Shown here: positions 8,767 to 44,449 of the stretch, in pieces | Layout of the letters: every line of letters begins with the position of its first letter | Numbering within the stretch: the first letter of the stretch is position 1 | Assembly (NCBI GenBank): GCA_963805855.1 | Contig: CAWDVW010000006.1 | Coordinates: 260,876 to 324,875, forward strand | Direction: 5' to 3' | DNA: 64,000 bases | DNA from: Candidatus Dadabacteria bacterium | GTDB lineage: Bacteria; Desulfobacterota_D; UBA1144; Nemesobacterales; CSP1-2 | Notes under the pieces: model-generated | Database searches by the model: none | Seen by the model: the letters and a program-made list of their open reading frames with translations, nothing else | What the model was told of the DNA's origin: nothing | Made by a program: the position numbers and the translations under genes

Positions 8767-8801
8767 CAAGATGCATGATTCAAGATTCATGATGCACGAT
8801 A
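8767..8801. repeat. 7-bp degenerate tandem array (5 units), one arm of an inverted pair
   Basis: caagatg catgatt caagatt catgatg cacgata; reverse complement resembles the 8969-9010 array. Confidence 0.8.
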
Positions 8802-8857
8802 TACCAGGCACGATGATTTTTTATAATTGCCTCTCTGAAGTTAAATCGCTTTGCATC

Positions 8858-8950
8858 TTATCTCCCATCGCTATTACTAAGCTCATCAAAAACTTCTTTT
8901 TTAAGAAATTCTGTCTCATTCAGTATCTCTAAATGAACTTTACTTTCATC
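8858..8950 (-). pseudogene. Remnant resembling the C-terminal half of a four-helix-bundle (IVP/TIGR02436-like) protein
   Basis: Manual translation DESKVHLEILNETEFLKKEVFDELSNSDGR*; no start; enclosed by inverted 7-mer arrays. Confidence 0.5.
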
Positions 8951-8968
8951 GCGATTTCGCCTTTTTCG

Positions 8969-9010
8969 TCCTGTATCCTGCATCATGTATCCTGTATCAT
9001 GCATCCTGTA
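8969..9010. repeat. 7-bp tandem array (6 units), other arm of the inverted pair
   Basis: tcctgta tcctgca tcatgta tcctgta tcatgca tcctgta. Confidence 0.9.
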
Positions 9011-9019
9011 CTTTCATTG

Positions 9020-9838
9020 TCATAGTACATCTCCGAAGGCGGGTTTTAATTTTTTAAAGATGAGCCCTCCGATTGCAAATGTGAATAGACTGAGTAAAAA
9101 GAGGTACGAAACGCCTTCGATATTTATATTGATATCGGCTGTTCGCAAAAGACTTACACGATACCCTTCTATCGAATATATAATTGGGTTCAATCCGTAA
9201 ACACCTTGCCAAAATTTAGGAATAAGATGCCGAGGGTAAATTATCGGCGTCAGAAAAAACCAGACGTTTACAAAAACTCCTATGATTTGCCCGATGTCTC
9301 GCAGAAAAACGTTGAGTGCAGAGAGCATCCAAGATAATCCGAGAGCAAATATTGCAGTTGTGAGTAATATTGGAATGATCAATAGAATTTTTAATGTTAT
9401 ACTATACCCAAAAAACACAAGAAGACCGATAAAAATCACCACACCGATTAAGTGATTGATAATGGCTGCAATAAGAAGTGTAAAAGGCAATATCTCAGAT
9501 GGAAATACGGTCTTACTGACCAAGCTCGACTGCTCTAGGACCGCTCCTGGAGATCGAGTTAAGACATCCGCGAAAAACATCCAAGGCAGTAGACCGGCTA
9601 CCAGCCAAACTGCGAAATTGGTTCCACCGTATTCGGGTCCTAATTTTATTTTTAAAATTACAGAAAACACAAAATAGTAAATGAGAAGTTGTGTTAGAGG
9701 ATGAATGATTGACCAGAAAATCCCAAGAAATGATCCAACATGCCTTGCACGGATGTCACGGATTGCCATGCTCCAGATCATATACCTATTCCTATAAACA
9801 CTAATAGTAAAATTTAAGAAATCCCTTAAAATTTGCAT
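9020..9838 (-). CDS. wzm: Polysaccharide ABC exporter permease (copy 1, intact)
   Basis: RDIRARHVGSFLGIFWSIIHPL, GLLPWMFF, FLTPIIYP; directly upstream of wzt. Confidence 0.93.
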   Translation of the reverse strand: MQILRDFLNFTISVYRNRYMIWSMAIRDIRARHVGSFLGIFWSIIHPLTQLLIYYFVFSVILKIKLGPEYGGTNFAVWLVAGLLPWMFFADVLTRSPGAVLEQSSLVSKTVFPSEILPFTLLIAAIINHLIGVVIFIGLLVFFGYSITLKILLIIPILLTTAIFALGLSWMLSALNVFLRDIGQIIGVFVNVWFFLTPIIYPRHLIPKFWQGVYGLNPIIYSIEGYRVSLLRTADININIEGVSYLFLLSLFTFAIGGLIFKKLKPAFGDVL

Positions 9839-10335
9839 TTGCGCTAATTAATCCGCGGTGCAATTCTGACTTGCCTATATTTAAGGCACAAAATAACATT
9901 CCGTTAAATTCATCGTATCGGAATTTCATCCATAGCATTTTTCGGTATGCCGATATTCGATATATGGTCAGATACAATAATTAATGGCTTTCATTGACGT
10001 GAGAGTAGAATGGGTCTAGTCCCGCTCTCGCAAATTGGATTCGATCTGTTGACATTAGCTAAAAAAAATCTCATCTGCAGATATCAATAAACCTTCACAG
10101 CTACTAACTTAAGATTATTGCTTACGTTAGTTTACTTTACTTAGATTGACGTTATAAGCACATCCACTGCCATCGCATGTATATATCATTCGCACAAGTT
10201 ATCCCTTCAAATTGGGCGGCCACAAGTTTAAGCGGAATCGAATCTGAAAGAGTATTATATTGTCTAACATTGAATACACATTTTCAATGGCATTCTTGAT
10301 AATTACCAATTCTGAAGCTTGTTTGTAACTAATAT

Positions 10336-11913
10336 TCACGTAGGAGGTATGTTCCGACGGAGGAATTGCTCGTTGCTCGGCAATTGAGGTGTCTCAACAG
10401 GCTCGAAATTTGTCATAATGTATCTCCACACGAGGGAATGAGTATTGCGAAAGCGAAGATCATCCCGTCCATCTAATGCTACATCACGCAGAAGAACCCA
10501 GTTTACTCTATTATTTGTCAAATCTTGAATCATAATTTTCTGCTTGTCAATGGTTTCCCGATGAAGTAGATACGTATCATATACGGGGGCCTTGAGTTTT
10601 AAGATTGCGTAAAGACCAGGCGAAAAAGGTGCAATGAGTAATCCTTCGCGTGGAGCAACATGCTGGGCAACCAGTCGCTTGACAATGTCAATATAATCGG
10701 CCTGGTCTTTTGGCAGCCAAAGCTGATCACCATTGATGCTATACTGAATTAGTTGATCATTAAATCGGAGTTTGAACATATACGGGTTATCTGTAACGAT
10801 CATGGCAAAAACAGTGCCAGTAAGAATTAAAACCACTAGACCTACAGCCAAGCCTTTATGATGATGTAAGATCAATGTATATAGCAGAGCCACGGAACCT
10901 AACAAGAATGGATGGATACTCTCATCGAGATGTGGAAGGTCAGCCCGGCTAAAAGCGTGATGCAGGTAAAATATTCCTACAAAGGAAGAGGCAATTAGTA
11001 ACGAATTACGTTGGACATCACTTGATTTGCACCTTAACGACCATATGATTGAAAAAACATAAAAAATCGGAATAACCAAAAAGAACAAACCCAAGAAGAA
11101 ACTGGATGCGCCGTTTAATATATCCAATTGAGTATAGTCAACAGTCCAAGGCCAGGGGACCGGTAAAAATATATTGGTATGGATAAATCCATTTTTAAGA
11201 TGTTTTAATACTTTAACAAGGAACGCATCGTACATACCAGAAACAAAAAGCAGCATAAGCAGCATAGGAATATACCCTGCGATAATCCCGGCACTCCAGA
11301 CTCCGTATCGCCTAAGTATGTTACTTTGCTTTTCCTTCAGCCACATAAAAAGTATGAGCATAAAAAATGCCAAGAAGGTATACAAGCCATGATTACGCCC
11401 CATCAGTGCCGCCAGGCCGACAAATAAGCCGGAAAAGAAATAACGTTTAGAGACTGGTTCTTCGATTAGACAGACCGCTATATAAACTGCTGCCATGGCA
11501 ACGCTAGGCTCAAATAACTTTTGCCAATGATACATATTCTGCATCCACACTAGTAATAATAACCCCACGAAACCTAATACCCACCAGTTTTTAACGACTC
11601 GTCTAGCGGCTAACAGTCCTAAGGTTAAACCTATTACCTGAAACATAGCTAAGGACAGCCGGAAGGCCATAATTCCCTGCCCAAATATTAAACCCCATGC
11701 TGCACCCCAGTAATATCGCCCAGGATCATAGGACCGAAAATCTAACATGGGGATATCACCAGCCGCCGTGCGAATAGTTCCATACCACACATAGCCTTCA
11801 TCAGCCAAGTTCAAACCAATATTGGCTTGGAGTAAAAAAGAGAGGCTTACGAGGACCAGAGCAATTAGAAGCGTATACAAAACTTCATGCTGCTGTGATT
11901 TATCTGCTGTCAT
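10336..11913 (-). CDS. Polytopic membrane protein, GT-C-like (lipid-linked sugar transferase candidate)
   Basis: About 11-12 hydrophobic segments; LADEGY...GDIPMLDFRSYDPG first-loop acidic motif; soluble C-terminal domain. Confidence 0.65.
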   Translation of the reverse strand: MTADKSQQHEVLYTLLIALVLVSLSFLLQANIGLNLADEGYVWYGTIRTAAGDIPMLDFRSYDPGRYYWGAAWGLIFGQGIMAFRLSLAMFQVIGLTLGLLAARRVVKNWWVLGFVGLLLLVWMQNMYHWQKLFEPSVAMAAVYIAVCLIEEPVSKRYFFSGLFVGLAALMGRNHGLYTFLAFFMLILFMWLKEKQSNILRRYGVWSAGIIAGYIPMLLMLLFVSGMYDAFLVKVLKHLKNGFIHTNIFLPVPWPWTVDYTQLDILNGASSFFLGLFFLVIPIFYVFSIIWSLRCKSSDVQRNSLLIASSFVGIFYLHHAFSRADLPHLDESIHPFLLGSVALLYTLILHHHKGLAVGLVVLILTGTVFAMIVTDNPYMFKLRFNDQLIQYSINGDQLWLPKDQADYIDIVKRLVAQHVAPREGLLIAPFSPGLYAILKLKAPVYDTYLLHRETIDKQKIMIQDLTNNRVNWVLLRDVALDGRDDLRFRNTHSLVWRYIMTNFEPVETPQLPSNEQFLRRNIPPT

Positions 11914-12176
11914 ATTTATGGTAAGTCCGTGTGGTTAGTTATCTCTTCGAGCTATGAAACCAAAATGCTTCGTAATTTCAGCGCTAAGCTGATTCTTGGA
12001 TGACGCAAATTTATCTAGTAGATATAAATGAATATTGATACAAAATAATTTGACCGATATCTGTGAAATCTCTTTCTTGCTAACTGGCGGCTTTAGTTAC
12101 TTCCTTAACTGTATCCGAATATAATTGACTATCAGACCTGGTTATGGGAGGCCAGAATATTAAAGGCTAGTGGTGA

Positions 12177-13310
12177 TTACCCTCCGAGAATTGTATAAAC
12201 AGCTTCAACGACCCGTCCAATGTCTCTCTCTTCCATCCCGACCCACAGCGGTAAGCGAATCAAACAATTGCTTGCTAATTGCGTGTGTGGTAGATCAGCA
12301 CTGGCCCTTCCATATCTTTTGCCAGCCGGAGCCGTGTGCAGGGGAACATAGTGAAAGAAAGCTTGAATGCCGGCCGCCTCCAAGTGTTCCAATACTAACG
12401 TACGATGTTCAAAACTAGGTAAAATCAGGTAATATAAATGCCCATTGTGCCGACATTCAGTAGGAACAATGGGGCGACGTACCTGCTTTTGTCCTTCTAG
12501 TTCGACAAATGCCTGGTGATAGTGTCTCCATATATCCAACCTATGTTGAGTAATGAGTTCTGCTCCCTCCAATTGCGCATAGAGATAAGCAGCCGTGATT
12601 TCACTGGGCAGAAACGATGAACCTATATCAACCCACGTGTACTTATCAACCTGGCCGCGAAAGAATTGACTTCGGTTTGTGCCTTTCTCCCAAATAATCT
12701 CAGCCCGCTCAGCCAAATTTGGATAGTTAATGAGCAGGGCTCCTCCATGACCCGAGATAAGATTTTTGCTCTCGTGAAAACTAAGCGTGGCCATGTGACC
12801 TATGCTACCCAGTGGACGCTCCTTATACGTAGACATGATTGTCTGAGCTGCATCCTCGATCACCAACAAACCGTAACGGTCAGCAATAGCCATAATGGCA
12901 TCCATCTCGCAAGCCACGCCAGCGTAATGTACTGGCACGATGGCTTTGGTGCGGGAAGTAATAGCGGCTTCGATCTTAGTTTCGTCAAGATTGAGAGTAT
13001 CATGGCGAATATCAACAAAGACCGGAACCCCGCCTCGGAGAGCAAAGGCGTTTGCTGTAGAGACAAACGTGTAAGAGGGCATGATCACTTCATCACCAGG
13101 CTGGATATCCCCGAGGATCGCGGCCATCTCGAGAGCACCAGTGCAAGAGTGCGTTAAAAAGGCACGATGGCAACTGATTTGTCTTTCTAACCACGCATGA
13201 CATTTCTTCGTGAACACTCCACTGCCCGACAGGTGTCCATTCGCAATGGCTTGTTGAATGTAATCTAACTCTCTTCCCACCAAGTGTGGGCGGTTGAAAT
13301 AAATATACAC
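12177..13310 (-). CDS. rffA: dTDP-4-amino-4,6-dideoxygalactose transaminase (DegT family)
   Basis: LTHSCTGALEMAA, IEDAAQ, SFHESKN (PLP Lys), EKGTNRSQFFRGQVDKYTWVDIGSS. Confidence 0.93.
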   Translation of the reverse strand: MYIYFNRPHLVGRELDYIQQAIANGHLSGSGVFTKKCHAWLERQISCHRAFLTHSCTGALEMAAILGDIQPGDEVIMPSYTFVSTANAFALRGGVPVFVDIRHDTLNLDETKIEAAITSRTKAIVPVHYAGVACEMDAIMAIADRYGLLVIEDAAQTIMSTYKERPLGSIGHMATLSFHESKNLISGHGGALLINYPNLAERAEIIWEKGTNRSQFFRGQVDKYTWVDIGSSFLPSEITAAYLYAQLEGAELITQHRLDIWRHYHQAFVELEGQKQVRRPIVPTECRHNGHLYYLILPSFEHRTLVLEHLEAAGIQAFFHYVPLHTAPAGKRYGRASADLPHTQLASNCLIRLPLWVGMEERDIGRVVEAVYTILGG

Positions 13311-16411: not shown

Positions 16412-16509
16412 TTGTTTAGAATATCCAATAGTCTAATCACCTGTAACCAATTCAAGAAGAGTTTTACACAGGTATTATTCATGGTCTCGAGTCAAAAAGG
16501 CTGCGCAGG

Positions 16510-16592: not shown

Positions 16593-16599
16593 TCTACGC

Positions 16600-18083: not shown

Positions 18084-18896
18084 TCATAGTGCATTTGCTA
18101 AGGCGGGTTTTAGTTTCCTAAAGATCAGCCCACCTACTGCAAACGTGACGAGTCCTAGTAACAAGAGGTATAAGAGTCCTTAAATATTTACATTTAAGGT
18201 TCCCAAAAATCCTGCACGATAACCTTCTACGGAATAAAGCATAGGATTCAAACCGAAAAGAAGTTGCAAATTTTCTGGAATGCCATGCCTCGGATAGACT
18301 ATCGGAGTTAAGAAGAACCAAATATTCACAAGCACACCAATGACCTGCCCGATGTCTCGCAGAAAAACGTTGAGTGCAGAGAGCATCCAAGATAATCCGA
18401 GAGCAAATATTGCAGTTGTGAGTAATATTGGAATGATCAATAGAATTTTTAATGTTATACTATACCCAAAAAACACAAGAAGACCGATAAAAATCACCAC
18501 ACCGATTAAGTGATTGATAATGGCTGCAATAAGAAGTGTAAAAGGCAATATCTCAGATGGAAATACGGTCTTACTGACCAAGCTCGACTGCTCTAGGACC
18601 GCTCCTGGAGATCGAGTTAAGACATCCGCGAAAAACATCCAAGGCAGTAGACCGGCTACCAGCCAAACTGCGAAATTGGTTCCACCGTATTCGGGTCCTA
18701 ATTTTATTTTTAAAATTACAGAAAACACAAAATAGTAAATGAGAAGTTGTGTTAGAGGATGAATGATTGACCAGAAAATCCCAAGAAATGATCCAACATA
18801 CCTTGCACGGATGTCACGGATTGCCATGCTCTTTATCATGTAGGAGTTATGATACACCATAACAAGAAAACTAAAGAAATCGTTTATGATTTGCAT
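18084..18896 (-). pseudogene. wzm: Second wzm permease with a premature in-frame TAA at 18180-18182
   Basis: After ...NVNI* the same frame continues GLLYLLLLGLVTFAVGGLIFRKLKPALANAL*, matching the copy-1 C-terminus, which has GAA (Glu) at that codon. Confidence 0.85.
18346..18831. repeat. ~486-bp near-identical direct repeat of 9288-9773 (wzm core)
   Basis: Constant offset of 9058 bp; one mismatch noticed (His/Tyr codon); flanks diverged. Confidence 0.92.
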
Positions 18897-19009: not shown

Positions 19010-19839
19010 TCATGTTTCTAAAGTAAATTCCTTTAGAGCGTCCTCCCACAATGGCATGATGATACTGACTTTCCTAAGCCGCGCGTTACTTAGTACTGAA
19101 TAAGAAGGTCTTTGGGCAGCTCTTGAGATTTCACACGTTTTTATAGGGATAATTTCTGTACCAAAACTACTAAATTTCACGATTTGTTGAGCAAAATCAT
19201 ACCAGGAACAATCTCCCTCTCCGGAAGCATGATAGATTCCATAATCATCGATGGGGATCAATTTGTTAATGCATTCTGCCAGGTCCCTTGCATAGGTAGG
19301 ACAGCCTATCTGGTCGTTGACAACTTTTATTTCTTCCTTAACTTTCGCAAGGTCTAAAATCGTATTAACAAAGTTCTTCTCTGAGTTGCCATAAAGCCAG
19401 GACGTCCTAATTACAAAAAATCTGGAACAGATATCCTTTACAAGATCCTCTCCACTTAATTTTGTTTTTCCGTAGACATTCAATGGATTTGGTGCATCTG
19501 TCTCTATATATGGCTCCCTTTTTCGACCGTCAAATACATAATCAGTTGACATATAAAATTAGTTTTGCCTTGATTTCTTCGGATGCGGTGGCGACGTTCT
19601 CAGTTCCTAAGGAATTTACATCCCATGCAAGCTCCGGATTTTCTTCACACCCGTCGACATCGGTATAGGCAGCCGTGTGTATTATGATTTCGGGTTTTAG
19701 TTCTATAATCTTTGGTATTATTTCAGAGTCTGTAATATCTATTTCATTGTGGGTTGGAGTAAGGAGCTCATCCACGTTTAAAACGTTTCTTAGTTCTCTG
19801 CCCAAGCTGACCGGTTGCGCCGGTAATTAGTATTCTCAT
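19010..19839 (-). pseudogene. rfbD: dTDP-4-dehydrorhamnose reductase split by two +1 frameshifts (pseudogene or sequencing indels)
   Basis: ATG 19839 MRILITGATGQLG; extra G near 19802; HTAAYTDVDGCE; extra T near 19556; STDYVFDG, YGKTK. Confidence 0.88.
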
Positions 19840-19863
19840 CGTTCGACTGTTTTTCTATCTAAA

Positions 19864-19894
19864 TATTCAGCCACAAAGACACTAAGACACTAAG
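19864..19894. repeat. Inverted-repeat arm downstream of GxxExxY (8-bp periodic)
   Basis: tattcagccacaaagacactaagacactaag; 25/31 identical to the reverse complement of 20296-20326. Confidence 0.9.
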
Positions 19895-19895
19895 A

Positions 19896-20288
19896 TTATA
19901 GAATAATTCTTTTAATACCATCCTTAATAAGTGACACGTTAAAATTGATGAGAAAACCGAGACGCTTGCAACTCAATTTTAAATAACTCAGTATTTGTGC
20001 TTCCCATACAGGATTCATCTCGTCTACCGCTTTCAGTTCACAAATGATCAACTCTTCCACCAAAACGTCTAATCGTAGCCCTTCATCAAACACAATCCCG
20101 TCATATACGATCGGGATATCCACCTGCCTTTGATATGTTAACTCTCGTTTAAATAGCTCGTGGCAGAAACATATTTCATAAACTCTTTCCAACAAGCCCG
20201 GCCCTAATTTCTTATGCACAGTATACGCGGAATCTACTATTTTCTGAGCAATTGATTCTTCTCTTTCTGATAGAGCTTTAAAATTCAT
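19896..20288 (-). CDS. GxxExxY protein (PD-(D/E)XK-like, TIGR04256-type)
   Basis: HKKLGPGLLERVY, RLDVLVE, ELKAV, AQILSYLKL, GFLINFN. Confidence 0.93.
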   Translation of the reverse strand: MNFKALSEREESIAQKIVDSAYTVHKKLGPGLLERVYEICFCHELFKRELTYQRQVDIPIVYDGIVFDEGLRLDVLVEELIICELKAVDEMNPVWEAQILSYLKLSCKRLGFLINFNVSLIKDGIKRIIL

Positions 20289-21316
20289 ATTCCCCTTTTG
20301 TGCCTTTGTGCCTTAGTGGCTGAATAGACGTATGCCTTCTTATAGTAATCTTTAAACTCCCCCTCTTTAATCCTTCGCCACCACTGTTGGTTTTCTTTAT
20401 ACCACTGTATTGTATATCTCAGTCCTTCTTCAAAGCCGTATCGTGGTCTAAAGCCAAGATCGTGGATTTTAGTTGGGGTCAGGGAGTATCTTCTATCATG
20501 ACCCAATCTATCTTTAACAAATTTTATTAGACCCTTTGGTTTTCTTAGTTCTTTAACTATGAACTCAGCAATCTCAATATTGGACCTCTCATTGCCTGCA
20601 CCGATATTGTAAATCTCCCCAGTTTTTCCCTTATGGAGAGCTAAGTCAATAGCTTCGCAGTCATCAATAACATGAATCCAGTCTCTTACATTTTTCCCAT
20701 CTCCGTAGAGGGGAAGGGGGAGCTCATCAATGCAATTCGTGATAAAAAGCGGAATGAATTTCTCAGGGTATTGATATGGGCCAAAGTTATTGGAGCTCCT
20801 TGTAATTATGATTGGAAGCTTATATGTAGCCCAGTAGGATTGAGCCAGTAGGTCGCCGCTCGCCTTAGAGGCGGAATATGGATTGCTTGGGTTTAGGGGA
20901 TCAGATTCTTTAAAGGATCCTAATTCAGTACTTCCGTAAACTTCATCTGTGGAAACCTGAATGTAGCGATGATGTTTGTATTTATTTGCCACTTCTAACA
21001 AAAGATAGGTTCCATATACATTGGCCTGAATGAAACTCTCAGGGTCAACTATCGACCTGTCCACATGGGTTTCTGCAGCAAAGTTAACTATAACGTCAGC
21101 TTGCTTAGCTAGCGTTTCCACAAGGGATGAGTCACAGATGTCACCTCTTACAAATGTATACCGGGGGTTTCCATCGATATCTTTCAGGTTCTCGAGTTTC
21201 CCTGCATATGTCAATTTGTCGAGGTTAATGACTTCGTAATTATCGTACTTTTGCAAAATGTGGCGTATAAAATTACTACCGATGAAACCGGCTCCTCCGG
21301 TAACCAACAGTTTCAT
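20285..21316 (-). CDS. rfbB: dTDP-glucose 4,6-dehydratase
   Basis: VTGGAGFIGS, DKLTYAG, AAETHVDRSI, STDEVYG, YSASK, GHDRRY. Confidence 0.96.
   Translation of the reverse strand: MKLLVTGGAGFIGSNFIRHILQKYDNYEVINLDKLTYAGKLENLKDIDGNPRYTFVRGDICDSSLVETLAKQADVIVNFAAETHVDRSIVDPESFIQANVYGTYLLLEVANKYKHHRYIQVSTDEVYGSTELGSFKESDPLNPSNPYSASKASGDLLAQSYWATYKLPIIITRSSNNFGPYQYPEKFIPLFITNCIDELPLPLYGDGKNVRDWIHVIDDCEAIDLALHKGKTGEIYNIGAGNERSNIEIAEFIVKELRKPKGLIKFVKDRLGHDRRYSLTPTKIHDLGFRPRYGFEEGLRYTIQWYKENQQWWRRIKEGEFKDYYKKAYVYSATKAQRHKRGI
20296..20326. repeat. Inverted-repeat arm upstream of GxxExxY, lying inside the 3' end of rfbB
   Basis: ttttgtgcctttgtgccttagtggctgaata. Confidence 0.9.
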
Positions 21317-21905: not shown

Positions 21906-22986
21906 TTAGGTTAGCTCTATGGTGCTTTGATCACCCAGAATGAACTTATGAGTTTTTGGCTTGTCAGTATTGTTATAAATCCTGACCTCTCGCCCTATCA
22001 GACTCTTTTCAATTCTCGAGTTGGTATCACTGATCTTTGAATTTTCAAGAACTATACTATATTCAATCTCACTATTTTTAATCGTACATCCATAATAAAT
22101 TGAAGTGAAGGGCCCTATATAACTTCTTTCAATCAATGTATTTTCACCCACTATTGCAGGACCCCTTATTGTGCTCTTGATTACCTTGGCGCCCTCTTGG
22201 ATAATTACCTTTCCTGATATGTCGGAGCTGCTGTCCACATGACCCATGATCTTGGGTTCGCCACTTGGAATAATGTTATCCAGAATAAGTCTGTTTGCCT
22301 CTAACAAATCCTCAGGTTTTCCTGTGTCTTTCCACCAACCTGTCACCTCGCAGTATCCGACCCGAAAACCATTATCAATTAAATACTGATGCGCATCGGA
22401 GATCTCGAGTTCGCCCCTTTTACTCGGCGTAATATTGTTTACTGCTTCAAATATCGAGCGATCGTAAATATAAATTCCGGTCACTGCAAAGGGACTTTTA
22501 GGATTTTTTGGCTTCTCTATAACTCTGATTACTCTCCCATCTTCAATGTCCGCAACTCCAAATCTTTGAGGTTCCCTAACTTTTGCCAGCACTAGCTGGC
22601 AATTATTCTTATTCCTGATAAACTCGTCGATGAATCCCTTGATTCCTCCGAGCAGGATGTTATCTCCCAAGTAAAACACGAAGGGCGAATCCCTTATAAA
22701 ATCTTCGGATATTTTAATAACATGAGCGAGGCCAAGTGGAGCCTTTTGATCAATATAGGCGAAATTTGCGCCCCACTTCTTCCCATCTCCCAATGCCTCT
22801 TTAATTTCTTTTCCCGCATGCGAGCTTGATCAAAATTCCGATATCATTAATCCCCGCTTGAATTACTGATTCTATAGCGTAGTAAATCATCGGTTTGTTT
22901 GCTATAGGGATCAAGTGTTTATTACTTGTGTGAGTGAGGGGTCTTAACCTCGATCCATGGCCCCCGCTTGTAATTAATGCTTTCAT
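21906..22986 (-). pseudogene. rfbA: Glucose-1-phosphate thymidylyltransferase, long form, with a +1 frameshift near 22826 (pseudogene or sequencing indel)
   Basis: MKALITSGGHGSRLRPLT...K.LIP, then frame switch to SHAGKEIKEALGDG, PLGLAH, YLGDN, RGELEI, WKDTG, C-terminal beta-helix. Confidence 0.88.
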
Positions 22987-23063
22987 ATCGTTTGCCATAG
23001 CTTATCTCAGACTAATGGTCATATAGTTTGTAATAATGTTCACAGGTTTTAGTCGGGCTTGGA

Positions 23064-23111
23064 TTCATGATTCATGATACAGGATGCATGACACATGATA
23101 CAGGGGCATGA
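23064..23111. repeat. Solo 7-bp tandem array, same family as 8767-9010
   Basis: ttcatga ttcatga tacagga tgcatga cacatga tacaggg gcatga. Confidence 0.8.
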
Positions 23112-23600: not shown

Positions 23601-23692
23601 ACTTCGGCAACCAGGCTACCATAGGTTGAGGACTCAACCCTTAGGTCATTGGCTTTGCGCTCCATTCTTTCGAATGGTTAGCCTTTTCGGAG
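23601..23692 (-). promoter_or_regulatory. c-di-GMP-I (GEMM) riboswitch
   Basis: Minus strand CCGAAAAGGCTAACCATTCGAAAGAATGGAGCGCAAAGCCAATGACCTAAGGGTTGAGTCCTCAACCTATGGTAGCCTGGTTGCCGAA: GAAA tetraloop stem, GCAAAGCC junction, CCTAA/ATGG receptor, GTTGCCGAA end. Confidence 0.9.
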
Positions 23693-23708
23693 CATTAAAT
23701 CTCAATAA

Positions 23709-23893: not shown

Positions 23894-23970
<77 letters not shown>

Positions 23971-25580: not shown

Positions 25581-26205
25581 CGTCATCCTCGAATGTTACC
25601 CCCCGCCCAAGCTACATGCGGAGACGAGTTTAAATCGGGAATTCAGTCGTTTAATTTTTTTTCTTTGTCTTGATACAAAGAAACAAAAATCAAGGGCTGA
25701 CAAAAAACGCTTGCGTATCGAGCGAATGCGAGATATCTATTGCTATAATTAATTAGTTCTCTCAGTCACTATGTTCCTTCGAGATGACAGTAATGATTGT
25801 CACTTTTTTTAACGCTTCCGGAATTGATTTTGGTAATTTTTTGAATGCCCATTTAGAATCTGAAACACTGTCCCCGAATTGTGTAATATCTACGATTGCG
25901 AGAAACCCTTGCCCTAATTTCATCGAGCGATCGAAAGGTTTGTCCTCAGTGCCGTCGAGCGACTGCTTCTTTTTATCTGTGCTGAACGATTGCCTGAAGA
26001 AAATCGGGAACGAAGACGTAAAGAAAAAATTTGCGGGTTGTGATTGGACAAGTTGTCCTGTTGTTATGTCATCCCTGAGGATAGTTATCGTGAATCCGGG
26101 GATAAAGAATATGGATTCCCTATTAAGGCGTTAGGGAATGACAACAAGGGGCAGCCTTGTCCCGAGTCTGCCTTGAGCTTGTCGAAAGGCGGTGCCGAAG
26201 GGTCG
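25581..26205. repeat. Cluster of degenerate REP-like palindromic elements from several families
   Basis: gtcatcctcgaatg..gggaattcag; tctttgtcttgatacaaagaaacaaaaa; tgtcatccc...tggattccc...gggaatgaca (26067-26143); ccttgagcttgtcgaaagg. Confidence 0.7.
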
Positions 26206-26347
26206 CTTCTTTGTATCAAGACGAAGAGGTTAGAAAAAAAGATGATTCAAGAGAATAATTCTAAAAATCTTGCCCCCTGAAACATCTGGCTCTTATAGTG
26301 ACATCTGGGGTTTCATTTTTTTCTGGAAATTAAATAACATTGCAGTC

Positions 26348-39458: not shown

Positions 39459-40191
39459 GGGGAAAGAAAGAATTGATCTATTATTGGTGAGAAGGGGATT
39501 GGTTCCCAGTAGAGCGCGGGCGCAATCCCTGCTGATGTCAGGCGTTGTATTTGTTGAAGGAACCAGGGTGGATAAAGCCGGAACACTTGTTGCGAAAGAT
39601 TCTGAGATAATTATCAAAGAAGATTCCCGAAGATATGTTGGACGAGGGGGTGTAAAGCTAGAAGCAGCACTGGACAGATTCAAAATCAACGTTAACGACA
39701 GAGTTGCTCTAGATATCGGTGCGTCCACAGGTGGTTTTACAGACTGCCTTCTTCAATTTGGAGCAAGAAAGGTATACGCTATCGATGTTGGCCATGGTCA
39801 AATCGATTGGGGTCTCAGGCAGGATAAAAGGGTTGTTGTCATGGAGAAGGTAAACGCCAGGTATTTAAAACCAGAAGACATAGGTGAGTTGGTTGATATT
39901 TCTACGATTGATGTATCCTTCATTTCACTCACATTGATAATCCCTCGGGTGAAGAATTTACTTAAACCGAAAGGAATACTGATCGCCCTGATAAAACCGC
40001 AATTCGAGGTTGGTAAGGGTGAGGTGGGAAAGAAGGGTGTAGTACGGGATGAATCTAAATACGCTGTCGTAATAGAGAAGATTACTTCATTCTTAGAGGG
40101 AGAATACTTTGATATTATCGGAGTTATGCCTTCACCCATCCTAGGTGCAGAAGGGAATAAAGAATTTCTTGTTGCGGGAGTCAAAAATTGA
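39454..40191 (+). CDS. tlyA: TlyA family rRNA (cytidine-2'-O)-methyltransferase; probable ATT start
   Basis: KERIDLLLV lies upstream of the ORF-track start (39484); YVGRGGVKL, DIGASTGGFTD, DVSFISL, LIKPQFE, GNKEF. Confidence 0.92.
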   Translation: MKGKERIDLLLVRRGLVPSRARAQSLLMSGVVFVEGTRVDKAGTLVAKDSEIIIKEDSRRYVGRGGVKLEAALDRFKINVNDRVALDIGASTGGFTDCLLQFGARKVYAIDVGHGQIDWGLRQDKRVVVMEKVNARYLKPEDIGELVDISTIDVSFISLTLIIPRVKNLLKPKGILIALIKPQFEVGKGEVGKKGVVRDESKYAVVIEKITSFLEGEYFDIIGVMPSPILGAEGNKEFLVAGVKN

Positions 40192-40308
40192 GTTGGGCCT
40201 CGATTTAACGTGATAACTACCTGATGACACCCGGTGTAAGCGTACTGCTGTCATTTGCTCTTCAGAAGTACTCAGGATAAGCTGGGAAGTTGAACTACTC
40301 TCAGGGTC

Positions 40309-40384
40309 TGTCATTCCCAAACGCAGTTATTGGGAATCCATAGACATCCAGCTGGATCCCCGACAAAAGTGCTCGGGGATGACA
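40309..40384. repeat. Double-hairpin palindromic element, GTCATTCCC...GGGAATCCA...TGGATCCCC...GGGGATGAC family
   Basis: Further copies at 26067-26143 and 52804-52879. Confidence 0.85.
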
Positions 40385-40423
40385 ACCGGAACGTCCTCAC
40401 AAATTAATCGAATCGCAAGCCTA

Positions 40424-40497
40424 TCGGGACAAGAATGTCCCGACTATCCGTAACAAATACTTTATCAATAAGGATAGGCGGGGTTTTCCAACCCCGC
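40424..40497. repeat. REP-like inverted doublet with GGATAG feet
   Basis: tcgggacaagaatgtcccgactatcc and ggataggcggggttttccaaccccgc. Confidence 0.7.
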
Positions 40498-40543
40498 ATG
40501 GAGAAAACATAAGGATTGGAAACAAACCTGTCATCACCTGAAA

Positions 40544-41194
40544 TCATCTTTTCACATCTTTCCAATCTGACAGAAATCTTTCGAGGCCAGCATCTGTTAA
40601 TGGATGCTTTAAGAGTTGCTTGAAAACCTTGTAGGGCATGGTCGAAACATGTGCTCCTGCCTTTCCGGCCTCAACTACATGTACAGGATGTCTGATGCTT
40701 GCTACTAATACCTGGGTGTTAAAGGCATAATTCTTGTAGATATCAACGATATCTTTCACTATGTTCATACCAATTTCCGAGATATCGTCAAGCCTTCCAA
40801 CAAATGGGCTTACATAGGTCGCGCCCGCTTTAGCGGCAATTAATGCCTGTGAAGGTGAAAACACAAGTGTGACATTAACTTTAATTCCCTCATCAGATAC
40901 GATCTTTGTTGCCCTGATTCCGTCTTCTGTAAGAGGCATTTTTACAACAACATGTGGGTGAATTTCGGCAAGGTCTCTGGCTTCGTCGAGCATTCTCTCT
41001 ATGTCAGTGCTTATTACCTCAGCGCTTACCGGTCCATCTACAATCTCGCATATTTCCTTTACCAATTGTTTAAATCCCTTCTGTTCTCCTTGTTTTGAAA
41101 CCAGGGTAGGGTTTGTGGTTACACCGTCCAGAATTCCAATACTAGCGGCGTCCCTTATTTCATCCAGGTTCGCGGTGTCCAGGAAGAATTTCAT
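40544..41194 (-). CDS. tal: Transaldolase, short FSA-like type
   Basis: [51 protein letters not shown]. Confidence 0.92.
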
Positions 41195-41345
41195 CGCGTA
41201 GCCTCCTATATCGTTACCCGAATATAACATAATTTATTTATCGAGTGAAGATGAATAGATAGTTTCTATCAGAGTTTATCTGGATTTGACAAACTTTCGA
41301 ATATCTGAAGAATATCATTTTAACTTTTTCAACAGCGTGGTAAAC

Positions 41346-41639
41346 ATGTCTAATAGAAAGAAATCGGCAGTTAAAAGGCACCGGCAGAACTTGAAAAGAA
41401 GATCCAGGAATATGAATACGCGTTCGAAACTGAGGACCCTTGCTAAAAGCATTAGCTCCGCTATCGATGCTAATGATGTTGCTAAGGCGCAAGAGATCTT
41501 AAGGGTTACGATGGCCGAGTTTGATAAGGCTGGTTCAAAGGGTGTAATTCATAAAGGGACGGCATCACGAAACATATCCAGGTTCTCAAAAAAGGTATCT
41601 AACCTGTCAAAATCATTACAACAAGCTTCTTCTACGTAA
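41346..41639 (+). CDS. rpsT: 30S ribosomal protein S20
   Basis: MSNRKKSAVKRHRQN...DKAGSKGVIHKGTASR. Confidence 0.95.
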   Translation: MSNRKKSAVKRHRQNLKRRSRNMNTRSKLRTLAKSISSAIDANDVAKAQEILRVTMAEFDKAGSKGVIHKGTASRNISRFSKKVSNLSKSLQQASST

Positions 41640-41651
41640 CCATTTTAATTG

Positions 41652-42650
41652 TTACCTGCACATTTCCAAAACTAATTTTGTGAGAATCTGATGACTTGGA
41701 AGAGAGCTGGTCTTTAATTTTTTATCCACCTGGTAGAGACTTTTCATTATTTCCCTGATCTCCGCCGAAGTAAGGTTTTTTGCATGTTCCCTTGCATAGT
41801 ACAGGGCTCCCGACGAAATTTTAACTTCCTTAAGAATTTGCTCCTTTGTGAATTTCTTCTCAATAAGCTCCTTTACTCTCCAGATAAGTCTAAATCTCCA
41901 GCTCAACATGTTAAGTATCGATAGAGGGTCCTCGTTCTTCAATTCAAGATCCAGCAATGCTCTTAGTGCATTTTTCATATCCTTTTTGGCAATTGAATTT
42001 AATAGTTGGAAGATATTTTCAAACTTGATTTTTTCTGTAATCCTTTCTACATCGGCAGCGTCGATTTTCTTTTTGCCAGCAGTGTATAGTGATAGTTTTT
42101 CTATCTCTGTCTTGATGTCCTGCAAATTTTCGCCTATTAGGGATGTCAAACGCAGAACCGCCTCGTTCGTTATATCATGACCGCACTCTGCAGCGATTTC
42201 CCTGATCGATGAATGCATGTTGTTTTTATCAACTGTCGTATCGACTATAAAAATATTCTCATTATTTTTATTCTCTATACCCTTAGTGTTATTGAATTGA
42301 AATACCAGACAAGTAAACGACGAAGGTGATTGAAAGTACTTTTCAAACGCTTTCAGCTCAGACGTAGATAATTTCTCCGCATTTTTCAATAAGATGAGCC
42401 TCTTGTTTCCAAACATCGGGTAGGTTTGTGCCAAAGAGATAATATCCTCTGCAGATGCTGTATCGCCGTGAAAAAGCAAGTAGTTAAGCTCGGGGTTCTT
42501 AATTAAGATGTGCTTTTTTAATCTATCAATGGCCTGTTCTGTTAAAAATGTTTGTTCTCCAGTGAAAAAATAGACGGGTCTGACCACATTGTTATCAAGA
42601 TTACTGTAAAGACTTTGCATATTGATTCTATTTGGTGTCTTCTTTTTCAT
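41652..42650 (-). CDS. holA: DNA polymerase III delta subunit
   Basis: PVYFFTGE, TYPMFGNKRL, EIEKLSLY, DKKLKTS; convergent with rpsT. Confidence 0.9.
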   Translation of the reverse strand: MKKKTPNRINMQSLYSNLDNNVVRPVYFFTGEQTFLTEQAIDRLKKHILIKNPELNYLLFHGDTASAEDIISLAQTYPMFGNKRLILLKNAEKLSTSELKAFEKYFQSPSSFTCLVFQFNNTKGIENKNNENIFIVDTTVDKNNMHSSIREIAAECGHDITNEAVLRLTSLIGENLQDIKTEIEKLSLYTAGKKKIDAADVERITEKIKFENIFQLLNSIAKKDMKNALRALLDLELKNEDPLSILNMLSWRFRLIWRVKELIEKKFTKEQILKEVKISSGALYYAREHAKNLTSAEIREIMKSLYQVDKKLKTSSLPSHQILTKLVLEMCR

Positions 42651-42751
42651 CTTGAAAACTGGAAGGAGTTTATGGATTAATTATATTTCATTAGCAACGC
42701 TTCGGCAATTTATCTAAGATCATAGTTTGGTAGTCTACAAAGGGAAACAAT

Positions 42752-43483
42752 ATGATACGACGCTACGTTGAATGGATATACCTCGAAGATGTAGAGTACT
42801 CTTTTGGCATTGACCTGCAGAGTATATTACACGAAAAGGTGTCCCGTCTAAGCTCAGATACAACAGGATTTCTTTTGCTTGTCCAACATAGATCAGTTAT
42901 TACGGTTGGAAGGTTCGGTAAAAATAGTAACATCCTGTACACCGAAGAATATCTAAAAGAAAGGGGTATTGCCGTACATAAGACATCCCGTGGGGGAGAT
43001 GTCACTTTTCATGGGCCGGGCCAGCTCGTTGGATACCCAATAATAAATCTGAGGGGTTTTAAGTTGGGGATTAGATCTTATGTCCATTTATTGGAGGAAA
43101 CAATCATAGAAGTCCTTAAATATTTTGATATAGTGGCGGAGAGGAGGGAAAAGTACCCGGGTGTTTGGGTTGGCAGAGAAAAGATCGCCTCAATAGGTAT
43201 CCAGGTGAGTAAACATACGTCTATGCATGGAGTGGCAATGAATGTGAGCAATGACCTCGATAACTTTTCTCTGATAGTGCCCTGCGGCATTAGTGAGGGG
43301 GTTGTTACATCCATAAAGAAATTGATTAACGGTACAATTCCGCTCAGGCAGGTCGCGCATTGCTTTGCGAAGGAATTCGGGAAGATATTCGATGCTGAAA
43401 TCGGGGAAATTCTAGATTTGAGCAGATCGTCTCTTCTGATAGACGAAAACAGTACCGATATAATTGAAAAGCTTATGATTTAA
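42752..43483 (+). CDS. lipB: Lipoyl(octanoyl) transferase
   Basis: RGGDVTFHGPGQLVGYPI, GVWV, KIASIG, HGVAMN, IVPCGI. Confidence 0.94.
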   Translation: MIRRYVEWIYLEDVEYSFGIDLQSILHEKVSRLSSDTTGFLLLVQHRSVITVGRFGKNSNILYTEEYLKERGIAVHKTSRGGDVTFHGPGQLVGYPIINLRGFKLGIRSYVHLLEETIIEVLKYFDIVAERREKYPGVWVGREKIASIGIQVSKHTSMHGVAMNVSNDLDNFSLIVPCGISEGVVTSIKKLINGTIPLRQVAHCFAKEFGKIFDAEIGEILDLSRSSLLIDENSTDIIEKLMI

Positions 43484-43570
43484 GGTGGTTATGTCTCAAC
43501 CAAAGGAGCCCTCCAGGCTTCGAAACCATACGAACGCTGACATTCGGCGTGCGAACGGATACATGGATAA

Positions 43571-44449
43571 TCTCCTCCCCCTTGACGGGGGAGGATGGAA
43601 GGTAGGGGTGACCATTATCCCCCAAAACCCAATTCACCAGCTATCACTTCCATTACAATCTCGATATCCTGCAACACCTCATTATTCCAAAATCGTAGTA
43701 CCTTAAAACCCTTGTCTTCCAGCCATCTATCACGCTTAGCATCATAAAATTTGAATTTGTCATGTTGTCCTCCATCCACTTCAATAATTAATTTCTTTTC
43801 TAAACAGACAAAGTCAACTATGAATGGTCCTAAAGGATGCTGTCTTCTAAACTTATACCCTCCCATCCGACGAAGCCGAATATGGGCCCACAATTTTCTT
43901 TCTGCGTCTGTAGGATTTTTTCTCAAATCCCTTGATCTATTAACAAGCATTTGTTAACCCCCTTCCTAACCTTCCCCCTTACAAGGGGAAGGGATAGTTT
44001 CTAGATTTCCTGGATTTTCAGCGGGATCGAAGTACGTGTACCAATTATAATCCACCCTTATCCTTCGGGGATATTCAAAAGTAGGAAACGTTAGTCCCTA
44101 TTAAGTCTTTATACTCCAATATCTCCTCCCCCCAACGTGTTGGGGGAGGACTAAGGTGGGGGTTACATCTCTGCATAACCCAATTCGTTGCGATGTTTCT
44201 AGTCATTTTCTACTAACCCCATCCTAGCCTTCCCCCTTTTTCAAAGGGGAAGGATTTAAAATTCACTTACCTTTTTTAGGTGGAATGGGCTGTTGATAAT
44301 TAATTATACGACCATTTATTCGTTGTGGTTGAGGGCGAGAAAAAATATAATAACTGCAATATAAATTAATGTACCGCCCCGTATTGATCTCCCTTTAGGG
44401 GGTAAAATTCTCCTCCCACACCTGTGGGAGTGGATTAAGTTGGGGGGTA
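43571..44449. repeat. Array of five ~40-bp hairpin repeats in alternating orientation around DUF559
   Basis: 43571-43610(+), 43956-43994(-), 44122-44165(+), 44214-44254(-), 44409-44449(+); consensus tctcctcccc-loop-ggggagga..aaggt.ggggt. Confidence 0.88.
43615..43950 (-). CDS. DUF559 (Vsr-like PD-(D/E)XK) endonuclease-domain protein
   Basis: LRKNPTDAERKLW, KFRRQHP, IVDF, IIEVDGGQH, VLRFWN. Confidence 0.93.
   Translation of the reverse strand: MLVNRSRDLRKNPTDAERKLWAHIRLRRMGGYKFRRQHPLGPFIVDFVCLEKKLIIEVDGGQHDKFKFYDAKRDRWLEDKGFKVLRFWNNEVLQDIEIVMEVIAGELGFGG

What the first reader, a model, noticed from the sequence alone, without database searches (positions are those of the whole stretch)
8767..44449. 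Shared architecture: three unrelated small genes, each enclosed by its own inverted-repeat family
Seen: the four-helix-bundle relic (7-mer arms), GxxExxY (8-mer arms) and DUF559 (~40-bp hairpin arms) share one layout: arm, 0.1-0.4 kb ORF, inverted arm, co-oriented with the upstream gene. In the two intact cases the upstream arm abuts or supplies the RBS. Solo or empty arms also occur (23064, 44122-44254, 44409). No transposase, integrase or RT is in the window. Inference: a general, poorly described class of REPtron/IVS-like 'hairpin cassettes' with gene-family-specific repeats, two of three here in a surface-glycan operon. Best candidate for an undescribed system.
Basis: inference. Interest (0 to 1): 0.78.

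Follow-up and report, generated by a model that had tools for sequence, protein, structure and literature searches.

The report
Three small genes inside matching repeats
Three unrelated small genes in this bacterium each sit between mirror-image copies of their own kind of scattered DNA repeat, and these gene-plus-repeat units come and go between close relatives, so they look like a largely undescribed class of selfish gene cassettes.

Summary
In the window, a four-helix-bundle (4HB) gene remnant, an intact GxxExxY nuclease gene and an intact DUF559 nuclease gene each lie between inverted arms of a different repeat type. The types are 7-base arrays, GCCAC plus 8-base arrays, and hairpins with a G-rich box.

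Across the genome each repeat type is dispersed, mostly without a gene. The only genes found inside each type belong to its own family. Intact, internally deleted and empty copies all occur.

In relatives and, for GxxExxY, in 76 loci from many phyla, the same pairing recurs far above controls. Arm similarity tracks protein similarity. Genomes with the repeats are largely those with the gene.

Orthologous sites are polymorphic: whole cassettes are present or absent, and one junction holds different cassette types in sister genomes. Metagenome contigs skip the DUF559 block. dN/dS is 0.05-0.21. No transposase, integrase or reverse transcriptase of the five families searched lies in the window.

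Best reading (0.6): mobile cassettes whose small protein recognises its own flanking repeats, like REP/RAYT and NTS/Ssn but with other proteins. Mobility catalysis is inferred, not shown.

My paper searches found no description beyond rRNA intervening sequences. This scan has noted each pairing many times on other DNA.

The parts
8766..8801 (-). Downstream arm of cassette 1: array of 7-base GATNCAN-type units; overlaps the listed start of wzt
8802..8973 (-). Remnant of a four-helix-bundle (PF05635-type) gene: last ~59 codons with an in-frame stop; the 5' two thirds are deleted
   Evidence: 68% nt and tblastx E 8e-18 to the intact cassette at C6:84920-85096
8974..9009 (-). Upstream arm of cassette 1 (inverse heptamer array), just after the wzm stop
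19864..19893 (-). Downstream arm of cassette 2: 8-base units ending in the outer GTGGC word, followed by the rfbD start
19896..20288 (-). Intact GxxExxY / PDDEXK_3 gene (130 aa); D74, E84 invariant and K86 nearly invariant (nuclease-motif positions) among 10 aligned relatives
20297..20326 (-). Upstream arm of cassette 2 (GCCAC plus 8-base units). It lies inside the last codons of rfbB; its inner end is the purine-rich stretch before the ATG, and the ATG overlaps the rfbB stop
23062..23110 (.). Solo heptamer array between the c-di-GMP riboswitch and rmlA
43573..43610 (-). Downstream arm of cassette 3: C-rich stem, loop, G-rich stem, short spacer, G-rich box (triplex-motif design)
43615..43950 (-). 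Intact DUF559 (Vsr-like PD-(D/E)XK) gene, 111 aa
43957..43993 (-). Upstream arm of cassette 3 (inverse copy); its G-rich box on the sense strand lies 8-9 nt before the ATG
44122..44256 (.). Gutted cassette: inverted pair of the same hairpin arms around ~47 nt that resemble the DUF559 3' end
   Evidence: resemblance judged by eye
44409..44449 (.). Solo hairpin arm next to the ndk stop, in direct orientation with the arms at 43573 and 44122

Best explanation
These are three families of small selfish gene cassettes built on one plan. Each has a ~110-130 aa protein gene (two PD-(D/E)XK-fold nucleases and one four-helix-bundle nucleic-acid binder) enclosed by inverted copies of a repeat specific to that protein family. 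Gene plus arms behave as one heritable, movable unit that lands in the short spacers between co-oriented operon genes; the upstream arm provides the ribosome-binding stretch. The gene is often lost by internal deletion, which leaves gene-less arm pairs and solo arms that far outnumber the gene-bearing copies. This resembles REPINs and their RAYT gene, or NTS repeats and ssnA. Shown here: the pairing, its specificity, co-inheritance of arms and protein, genome-level co-occurrence, purifying selection, and presence/absence and replacement at orthologous sites. Inferred: that each protein binds (and, for the two nucleases, cuts) its own arm motif, probably in a folded or single-stranded state, and that this drives spread or maintenance of the repeats.
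For: In this genome, of 34 convergent heptamer-array pairs, 32 have spacers of 33 nt or less. The only two with inserts hold the intact 4HB gene (C6:84916-85479) and the window relic. The 8-base arm family has 3 pairs by the strict scan: one intact GxxExxY and two gutted copies, one keeping arm, ribosome site and about 5 codons. A fourth, gutted pair is at C2:423273-423364. Both DUF559 genes are flanked by the same hairpin family, and an empty pair and solos occur elsewhere. Each gene has only its own repeat type within 300 nt.

In relatives of the same order, flank inverted-repeat scores have medians of 27, 28 and 31 (n = 13, 18, 28), against 15-16 in 228 shifted controls. Arm types follow the gene family.

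Across phyla, 76 usable of 80 GxxExxY loci were scored. Of these, 46 have unit arrays upstream and the inverse downstream (62 have either), against 1 of 5000 random intervals. Arm similarity tracks protein similarity: rho 0.34, 0 of 999 permutations reach it, on the 50 loci with the strongest arms.

Genome-level co-occurrence, my tallies from the tables. Hairpin motif vs DUF559 in 120 genomes: both 24, gene only 2, motif only 10, neither 84. CCAC-unit arrays vs PF13366 in 41 genomes: 7/0/4/30. GATNCAN arrays vs PF05635 in 41 genomes: 12/3/2/24.

Mobility. A 475-485 nt 4HB cassette with both arms is present in G002 and G001 where the flanks are contiguous in G000 at C5:581427|581428. One junction is empty in G012, holds a GxxExxY cassette in G002, a broken one in G001 and a heptamer hairpin in G000. 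The lipB-ndk spacer has a single arm in G001 against 962 nt in G000. Metagenome contigs skip 916 and 1028 nt there; in run X1 a contig 99% identical on the flank skips the block and another contig covers the gene. Cassette 2 is 79-85% identical in nt to copies in other genera, while its flanking rfb genes match at 68% or less, or not at all.

dN/dS is 0.05-0.21 in the 7 of 9 pairs where dS was not saturated. In E. coli K-12 a copy fitting the published triplex-motif consensus lies about 190 nt downstream of ycjD, the DUF559 gene annotated in the 12-kb region I fetched.
Against: No activity of any of the three proteins on its arms is shown. The 4HB protein has no known catalytic fold, so it cannot be a transposase in the usual sense. 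No target-site duplication was seen at the clean 4HB filled/empty pair, and the empty site keeps about 12 nt that look like the last arm units. Loss by deletion across the hairpin is therefore as possible as gain. The three direct-oriented arms at the DUF559 locus could give the G001 state by simple recombination, so polarity is unresolved. Some cassettes are inherited vertically: the G000/G002 4HB cassette is collinear at 87.6% over 3.3 kb. Not all loci show arms: 5 of 13 GxxExxY, 6 of 18 DUF559 and 8 of 28 4HB loci in relatives score under 25, and 14 of 76 cross-phylum loci lack the unit arrays on both sides. Ten genomes have the hairpin motif without a DUF559 gene. Kin genomes are not independent, so the 2x2 tables overstate the association. 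E. coli ycjD has no triplex arm upstream.
Confidence: 0.6

Rival explanations
1. Domesticated repeat-reading proteins, like Ssn. The proteins serve the host by acting on their genome-wide repeats, for example by cutting incoming or single-stranded DNA at the motif, or by controlling recombination or transformation. The flanking arms then regulate the gene itself or are leftovers of an old mobile origin.
For: Purifying selection on all three families. Repeats far outnumber genes. The published Ssn/NTS case has this architecture and this role (sections read). Some cassettes are kept vertically.
Against: Genes are often gutted while the arms persist. Gene presence is patchy even within a genus. 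Near-identical proteins (75-83% aa) occur in genomes labelled as other phyla. One junction is colonised by different cassette types. These patterns fit selfish turnover better than a stable host function. The two readings are not exclusive.
Confidence: 0.17
2. RNA-level modules like rRNA intervening sequences. The arms pair in the operon transcript and are cut by RNase III. This releases or silences the small ORF and uncouples the neighbouring cistrons. The DNA-level pattern is only a consequence of an RNA structure under selection.
For: The Coxiella 23S IVS carries a 4HB ORF between a 28-bp inverted-repeat stem cut by RNase III, with tandem heptamers before the start codon (passages read). 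The cassettes here sit inside operons, co-oriented.
Against: Arm mismatches show no clear excess of G-U-compatible changes on the sense strand. GxxExxY: 54 sense vs 69 antisense, with 161 of 284 mismatches being transversions. 4HB: 35 vs 24. DUF559: 19 vs 9. Unit order is not mirrored between arms, which fits motif arrays better than a maintained stem. Solo arms and gene-less pairs are common outside operon junctions. An RNA role would not explain repeat-gene co-occurrence across genomes.
Confidence: 0.1
3. Passenger genes. The repeats are ordinary REP/MITE-like elements moved by some other enzyme (a Y1 transposase or host functions). The small genes happen to be trapped in them because both prefer the same intergenic spots.
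For: The genome has 10 Y1_Tnp matches. Different repeat types do pile into the same junctions and even into each other: a heptamer hairpin is nested in gutted GxxExxY cassettes.
Against: 0 of 10 Y1_Tnp genes has any of the three repeat types within 1 kb. The pairing is family-specific in this genome, in relatives and across phyla. Arms co-vary with the protein. Random trapping would mix families.
Confidence: 0.08

Closest known systems
REP/REPIN elements with their RAYT (TnpA-REP, Y1 HUH) gene; REPtrons
   Same: One small gene flanked by inverted copies of a hairpin repeat that is also dispersed genome-wide, mostly as gene-less doublets. One cognate repeat type per gene lineage.
   Different: The proteins here are PF13366, PF04480 and PF05635, not Y1 transposases. 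The genome's 10 Y1_Tnp matches are not near these repeats. The arms are arrays of 7-8 base units or triplex-type hairpins.
Ssn (single-domain GIY-YIG) nucleases with NTS/SRM repeats (Chenal et al. 2025, PMC11893778; abstract and sections 7 and 12 read)
   Same: The repeat-gene-repeat architecture, hundreds of gene-less repeats, and genome-level co-occurrence. The authors themselves compare it to insertion sequences and REP/RAYT.
   Different: Different protein folds. In the sections I read, no other gene family of this design is mentioned. ssDNA cleavage is shown there and untested here.
ORF-bearing intervening sequences of 23S rRNA (Coxiella burnetii IVS with S23p; Warrier et al. 2016, PMC4990558, passages read)
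   Same: A 4HB-family ORF between terminal inverted repeats, with tandem heptamers before the start codon. A mobile-element origin has long been proposed.
   Different: Here the cassettes are in protein-coding operons, not rRNA. The heptamer arrays form a dispersed family (104 arrays). Two other protein families share the plan.
BoxC / PIT / TM(ECO) intrastrand-triplex repeats (Holder et al. 2015, PMC4666352, abstract and passages read)
   Same: The DUF559 arms have the same three-block design: pyrimidine block, loop, purine block, short loop, mirror purine block. They are intergenic and dispersed. The paper links such motifs to locus instability.
   Different: The block sequences differ. The paper's main text does not contain 'ycjD', 'DUF559' or 'endonuclease'; its supplements could not be read. 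The link to a flanked nuclease gene is the new element.
Free-standing and intron-borne homing endonuclease genes, including the Vsr-like group I intron endonuclease listed with DUF559 in Steczkiewicz et al. 2012 (PMC3424549, table passage read)
   Same: Small selfish nuclease genes that cycle through gain, decay and loss at fixed sites between conserved genes.
   Different: Homing genes do not carry their own inverted arms or leave dispersed gene-less repeats. The 4HB member is not a nuclease.

Membership tests
REPtron / REPIN-RAYT | Encoded protein is a Y1 HUH transposase (PF01797) | tested here: not met
   Cassette proteins hit PF13366, PF04480 and PF05635. The 10 PF01797 matches in the genome lie elsewhere, with none of the three repeat types within 1 kb.
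REPtron / REPIN-RAYT | Gene flanked by inverted copies of a repeat that is also dispersed as gene-less doublets | tested here: met
Ssn / NTS-SRM | Single-domain GIY-YIG nuclease | tested here: not met
   No GIY-YIG family among the Pfam or NCBIfam hits of the cassette proteins.
Ssn / NTS-SRM | Site-specific cleavage of single-stranded DNA at the repeat | not testable with these tools
   Needs purified protein and oligonucleotides.
23S rRNA intervening sequence (IVS) | Inserted in a 23S rRNA helix | tested here: not met
   The window has no rRNA match in Rfam. The cassettes lie between wzm/wzt, rfbB/rfbD and ndk/lipB.
23S rRNA intervening sequence (IVS) | PF05635-family ORF between terminal inverted repeats containing heptamers | tested here: met
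   Intact copy at C6:84916-85479 and the window relic; 20 of 28 loci in relatives score 24 or more.
23S rRNA intervening sequence (IVS) | Excision from the transcript by RNase III at the stem | tested here: inconclusive
   Only an indirect test: no significant sense-strand G-U bias in arm mismatches. No RNA end data.
BoxC / PIT / TM intrastrand-triplex repeats | Three consecutive blocks: pyrimidine block, loop, complementary purine block, short loop, mirror-repeat purine block | tested here: met
   The arms at 43573-43610, 44124-44165 and 44409-44449 and genome copies have this order. The published consensus is quoted. The block sequence differs from the E. coli consensus.
BoxC / PIT / TM intrastrand-triplex repeats | Triplex formation by the isolated strand | not testable with these tools
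   Needs CD or NMR as in Holder et al. 2015.
Integron gene cassette | Single attC at the 3' end and an IntI tyrosine recombinase | tested here: not met
   The arms are inverted on both sides of the gene. None of the 9 PF00589 matches is in the window.
Classical IS / MITE | Terminal inverted repeats with a target-site duplication, and a DDE or other transposase | tested here: not met
   No clear duplication at the 4HB filled/empty pair. No rve, DDE_Tnp_1, Y1_Tnp, integrase or RT match in the window.
PD-(D/E)XK nuclease (for GxxExxY) | Conserved D ... (D/E)xK catalytic positions | tested here: met
   D74 and E84 are invariant and K86 nearly invariant in 10 aligned sequences of 32-100% identity. 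PF13366 E 2e-38. Activity itself is untested.

The most novel reading that the evidence does not exclude
GxxExxY, DUF559 and the rRNA-IVS-type four-helix-bundle proteins are the missing partner proteins of three old, unexplained classes of bacterial dispersed repeats: CAC-NAAG unit arrays, BoxC/triplex motifs, and tandem heptamer arrays. Together with Ssn they would define a general principle: a tiny single-domain protein that reads a folded or single-stranded form of its own flanking repeat and thereby spreads, maintains or polices that repeat. This would be a natural library of programmable structure- and sequence-specific DNA binders and cutters.
Probability: 0.3. Interest if true: 0.9.

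Novelty: new variant of a known kind. Interest (0 to 1): 0.74.

Why it matters
All three protein families are very large and have no established role outside special cases: Avd in diversity-generating retroelements and one intron endonuclease. The repeats they sit in (BoxC/triplex motifs, heptamer arrays) have been catalogued for decades without a partner.

A shared cassette plan gives each family a concrete, testable job: recognising its own arms. It would also explain a common annotation nuisance, small 'hypothetical' genes wedged into operons such as glycan loci. It would add operon junctions to the list of hot spots for selfish DNA. By analogy with Ssn, it points to new sequence- or structure-specific nucleases for single-stranded DNA work.

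Tried and rejected
1. A fourth cassette at 25662-26227 (21-nt, 95% inverted repeat around a 116-aa ORF) was rejected. The region is one copy of an abundant non-coding repeat: the left end matches 60 or more places, and only the first ~37 codons of the 'ORF' recur.

2. My first heptamer regex was too loose (1597 real vs 1285 shuffled) and was dropped for a stricter score.

3. The pooled direct-repeat control for flank scores was unusable because the arms are internally repetitive. I replaced it with cross-locus controls, which are themselves inflated because arms are alike across loci.

4. Orthologous sites of cassettes 1 and 2 could not be compared. The glycan operon has no DNA match in the two congeners, and only the repeats and the cassette itself hit.

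5. Sense-strand G-U bias in the arms, tried as a test for an RNA stem, showed no clear signal.

6. The 4HB cassettes of G001 and G002 at one site are only 68% identical with saturated dS, while the whole region aligns collinearly at 85%. I could not tell replacement from fast divergence.

7. The runs laid were contigs only, so circles, inversions and RNA ends could not be examined. Parts of the stretch without contig cover carry no meaning.

8. Paper searches that found nothing on the pairing: 'GxxExxY' (3 papers, none on repeats); 'four helix bundle' + 'intervening sequence' + '23S rRNA' + 'inverted repeat' (0); 'PDDEXK_3' (1); 'DUF559' + 'inverted repeats' (3, unrelated by listing); 'ycjD' (21, 12 listed, none on repeats by title or abstract); Pfam accessions (8); 'heptamer repeats'/'four-helix bundle'/'cyanobacteria' (10 listed, none relevant).

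Full report
**What is in the window**

The window is G000:C6:260876-324875 of a 3.11-Mb, 9-contig genome. Three small units share one layout.

- Cassette 1. Two arrays of 7-base units (8766-8801 and 8974-9009; 36 nt, 86% complementary) lie 172 nt apart, between the ABC-2 permease gene wzm (9020-9838, minus) and the Wzt ATPase gene (7472-8776, minus). The spacer is a real gene remnant. Window 8774-8950 aligns with the last ~175 nt of the genome's intact four-helix-bundle (4HB, PF05635) cassette (68% nt; tblastx 59% over 59 aa, E 8e-18). It is on the minus strand and carries an in-frame stop.
- Cassette 2. An intact 130-aa GxxExxY/PDDEXK_3 gene (19896-20288, minus; PF13366 E 2e-38; TIGR04256 E 4e-40) lies between 30-nt arms built from 8-base units with an outer GCCAC/GTGGC word. 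It is wedged between rfbB and rfbD. Its ATG overlaps the rfbB stop, and the upstream arm lies within the last rfbB codons.
- Cassette 3. An intact 111-aa DUF559 gene (43615-43950, minus; PF04480 E 9e-43) lies between two ~38-nt arms. Each arm holds its own hairpin plus a G-rich (or, inverted, C-rich) box. The cassette sits downstream of ndk.
- Beside cassette 3 lie a gutted pair of the same arms (44122-44256) and a solo arm (44409-44449). A solo heptamer array sits at 23062-23110.
- No match to Y1_Tnp, Phage_integrase, RVT_1, rve or DDE_Tnp_1 lies in the window, although the genome has 10, 9, 1, 7 and 1 matches.

**Whole genome: dispersed repeats, one cargo each**

- Heptamer arrays. A strict scan finds 104 GATNCAN-type arrays, against 1 in a shuffled genome. 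34 form convergent pairs. 32 of these are plain hairpins with spacers of 33 nt or less. The only two with inserts are the intact 4HB gene at C6:84916-85479 and the window relic. The second strong 4HB gene (C7:265952-266257) has inverted arrays of a different heptamer.
- 8-base arms. This family has three pairs by the strict scan, against 0 in the shuffle. One is the intact cassette. Two are gutted; one of these keeps the arm, the ribosome site and about five codons, followed by a nested heptamer hairpin. A fourth gutted pair appears at C2:423273-423364.
- Hairpin-plus-G-box motif. It occurs at 24 regex sites, against 2 shuffled. It flanks both DUF559 genes as inverted pairs and also forms an empty pair with an 8-nt spacer.
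- Specificity. Within 300 nt, each gene has only its own repeat type. None of the 10 Y1 transposase genes has any of the three types within 1 kb.

**Relatives of the same order**

PF13366, PF04480 and PF05635 are found in 7, 20 and 15 of 41 genomes. I scored the best local alignment between the 160-nt upstream flank and the reverse complement of the downstream flank.

| Family | Median score | Loci |
|---|---|---|
| GxxExxY | 27 | 13 |
| DUF559 | 28 | 18 |
| 4HB | 31 | 28 |

Intervals shifted within the same loci give medians of 15-16, 95th percentiles of 19-20 and maxima of 23, 22 and 34 (n = 52, 68, 108).

By inspection:
- DUF559 genes carry the hairpin-plus-box arms with the box next to the gene on both sides. 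A second DUF559 subfamily has its own variant.
- 4HB genes carry inverted heptamer (sometimes 8-mer) arrays whose unit differs from gene to gene.
- The GxxExxY arm unit changes with the protein subfamily.

Misses: 5 of 13, 6 of 18 and 8 of 28 loci score under 25.

**Beyond the phylum**

- A scan of one genome per species returned 580 relatives of GxxExxY. The best 80 were kept and 76 were usable. They come from genomes labelled Bacteroidota, Planctomycetota, Verrucomicrobiota, Acidobacteriota, Chloroflexota, Cyanobacteria and others. The closest are 75-83% identical in protein, in genomes labelled Desulfobacterales, Pseudomonadota and Pirellulales.
- Median own-flank score is 35.5, against 19 for 380 cross-locus pairs. 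43 of 76 exceed the 95th percentile of the controls and 24 exceed the 99th.
- 46 of 76 have at least two tandem CAC-type units upstream and the inverse downstream. 62 have either; 7 have the opposite arrangement. Random intervals give 1 of 5000.
- Arm similarity rises with protein similarity: rho 0.34, and 0 of 999 label permutations reach it, on the 50 loci with own score 30 or more. Gene and arms therefore travel together.
- For DUF559 I checked E. coli K-12. A copy fitting the published triplex-motif consensus lies about 190 nt downstream of ycjD, with a duplicated fragment of the ycjD 3' end between them. There is no such arm upstream.
- For 4HB, the published Coxiella IVS has the same plan, including tandem heptamers.

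**Genome-level co-occurrence**

These are my tallies from the tool tables. Kin genomes are not independent.

| Repeat vs gene | Genomes | Both | Gene only | Repeat only | Neither |
|---|---|---|---|---|---|
| Hairpin-box pattern vs DUF559 (E <= 1e-20) | 120 | 24 | 2 | 10 | 84 |
| CCAC-unit pattern (>= 5 hits) vs PF13366 | 41 | 7 | 0 | 4 | 30 |
| Four GATNCAN units (<= 2 mismatches, >= 10 hits) vs PF05635 | 41 | 12 | 3 | 2 | 24 |

For the hairpin-box pattern, the reversed-pattern control gave 0 in every genome. Repeats outnumber genes by far; for example, 114 CCAC-unit hits against 4 gene matches in G006.

**Insertion polymorphism**

- A 475-nt (G002) or 485-nt (G001) 4HB cassette, arms included, sits exactly where the flanks are contiguous in G000 (C5:581427|581428). 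The site lies between a stop codon and the next gene's ribosome site. The empty site keeps about 12 nt resembling the last arm units, and I saw no clear target duplication.
- One junction between two conserved genes has four states: empty in G012 (flanks 54 nt apart, no arms), a full GxxExxY cassette in G002, a broken one in G001, and a heptamer hairpin in G000.
- A second junction holds a GxxExxY cassette in G001 and G002 and a heptamer hairpin in G000. A third holds a full GxxExxY cassette in G002 and a gutted one with a nested heptamer hairpin in G000.
- At the window's lipB-ndk site, G001 has a single arm and G002 has 558 nt without the gene, against 962 nt in G000.
- Salt-marsh metagenome contigs join 43543 to 44460 (run X1; flank 99% identical, 47 nt on the short side) and 43431 to 44460 (run X3; 58 nt). 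Run X1 also has a contig across the DUF559 gene.
- Cassette 2 matches copies in other genera at 79-85% nt, while its rfb flanks match at 68% or less, or not at all.
- One cassette is plainly vertical: the G000 and G002 4HB cassette is collinear at 87.6% over 3.3 kb.

**Are the genes functional, and are the arms RNA stems?**

- dN/dS (NG86) is 0.05-0.13 for GxxExxY, 0.09-0.14 for DUF559 and 0.21 for 4HB. Two of nine pairs had saturated dS.
- In GxxExxY, D74 and E84 are invariant and K86 nearly invariant.
- Arm mismatches show no clear excess of G-U-compatible changes on the sense strand: 54 vs 69 for GxxExxY, with 161 of 284 mismatches being transversions; 19 vs 9 for DUF559; 35 vs 24 for 4HB. 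Unit order is not mirrored between arms. The arms look more like arrays of a recognition motif than like a maintained RNA helix, though an RNA role is not excluded.

**Interpretation**

The evidence fits mobile or formerly mobile cassettes in which gene and arms are one unit, the gene decays and the arms persist. This is the logic of REPIN/RAYT and of the NTS-ssnA-NTS unit, but with three other protein families, one of them non-enzymatic.

Not shown: that the proteins bind or cut their arms, how movement happens, and whether a given difference between genomes is a gain or a loss.

Rival readings are a domesticated Ssn-like host function, an IVS-like RNA processing module, and passenger genes in independent repeats. 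They are weighed in their own sections; the first is compatible with the main reading.

**Prior knowledge**

My searches found:
- the rRNA IVS literature for 4HB;
- the triplex-motif paper, whose main text names no partner gene;
- PDDEXK_3 listed with unknown function;
- the Ssn paper as the nearest published design;
- no paper linking GxxExxY or DUF559 to flanking repeats.

Supplements were closed.

This scan has noted the same pairings before on other DNA: 122, 98 and 376 notes hold the search words for GxxExxY, DUF559 and 4HB. These are unchecked leads. One of them is marked as having partly failed a later check, so I make no claim that the 4HB protein reads heptamers base by base.

What this window adds: all three families side by side in one genome, with family-specific pairing, filled, empty and replaced sites within one genus, population-level alleles, and co-occurrence tables.

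Noticed in passing
window 23603-23693 (-): c-di-GMP-I riboswitch (71.9 bits) upstream of the rml/glycan operon, with a solo heptamer array (23062-23110) between it and rmlA. A tRNA lies at 23894-23967 (+).
   Followed up: no
window 21906-22998 and 19010-19860 (-): rmlA is split into 65-aa and 295-aa ORFs. rmlD is split into a short N-terminal piece plus 87-aa and 180-aa ORFs. These are frameshifts, decay or assembly errors in the dTDP-rhamnose genes that flank cassette 2.
   Followed up: partly
window 25640-26230: Copy of an abundant non-coding repeat (left end matches 60 or more places in the genome) that starts with a short palindrome. The 116-aa 'ORF' inside is not a gene; only its first ~37 codons recur.
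   Followed up: partly
window 4696-4905: Four to five tandem copies of a 42-nt unit (73-83% alike), probably coding for a repetitive protein segment.
   Followed up: no
window 40332-40385, 52827-52963: Another short repeat family with a GC-rich palindromic core (80% alike), distinct from the three arm families.
   Followed up: no
window 9020-9425 vs 18084-18483: Two ABC-2 permease (wzm-like) paralogues share 77-82% nt identity over their 3' ~400 nt, 9 kb apart in the glycan region.
   Followed up: no
G000 C5:310045-311569 (-): The genome's only RVT_1 match lies next to a weak PF05635 (Avd-like) match. This is probably a diversity-generating retroelement, unrelated to the cassettes.
   Followed up: no
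G000 C3:16748-16902 and C2:423273-423364: Gutted GxxExxY cassettes whose interior is replaced by a hairpin of a second heptamer type: one repeat family nested inside another.
   Followed up: partly
L199 (E. coli K-12) 7041-7420: Downstream of ycjD there is a ~40-nt duplicate of the gene's own 3' end, followed by a canonical triplex-motif copy. This looks like the scar of a second, lost DUF559 cassette.
   Followed up: partly
G000 C2:424812-424866: Empty pair of CACAGAG-type arms, although G000 lacks the GxxExxY subfamily that carries such arms in G001 and G002: orphan arms without their gene.
   Followed up: no
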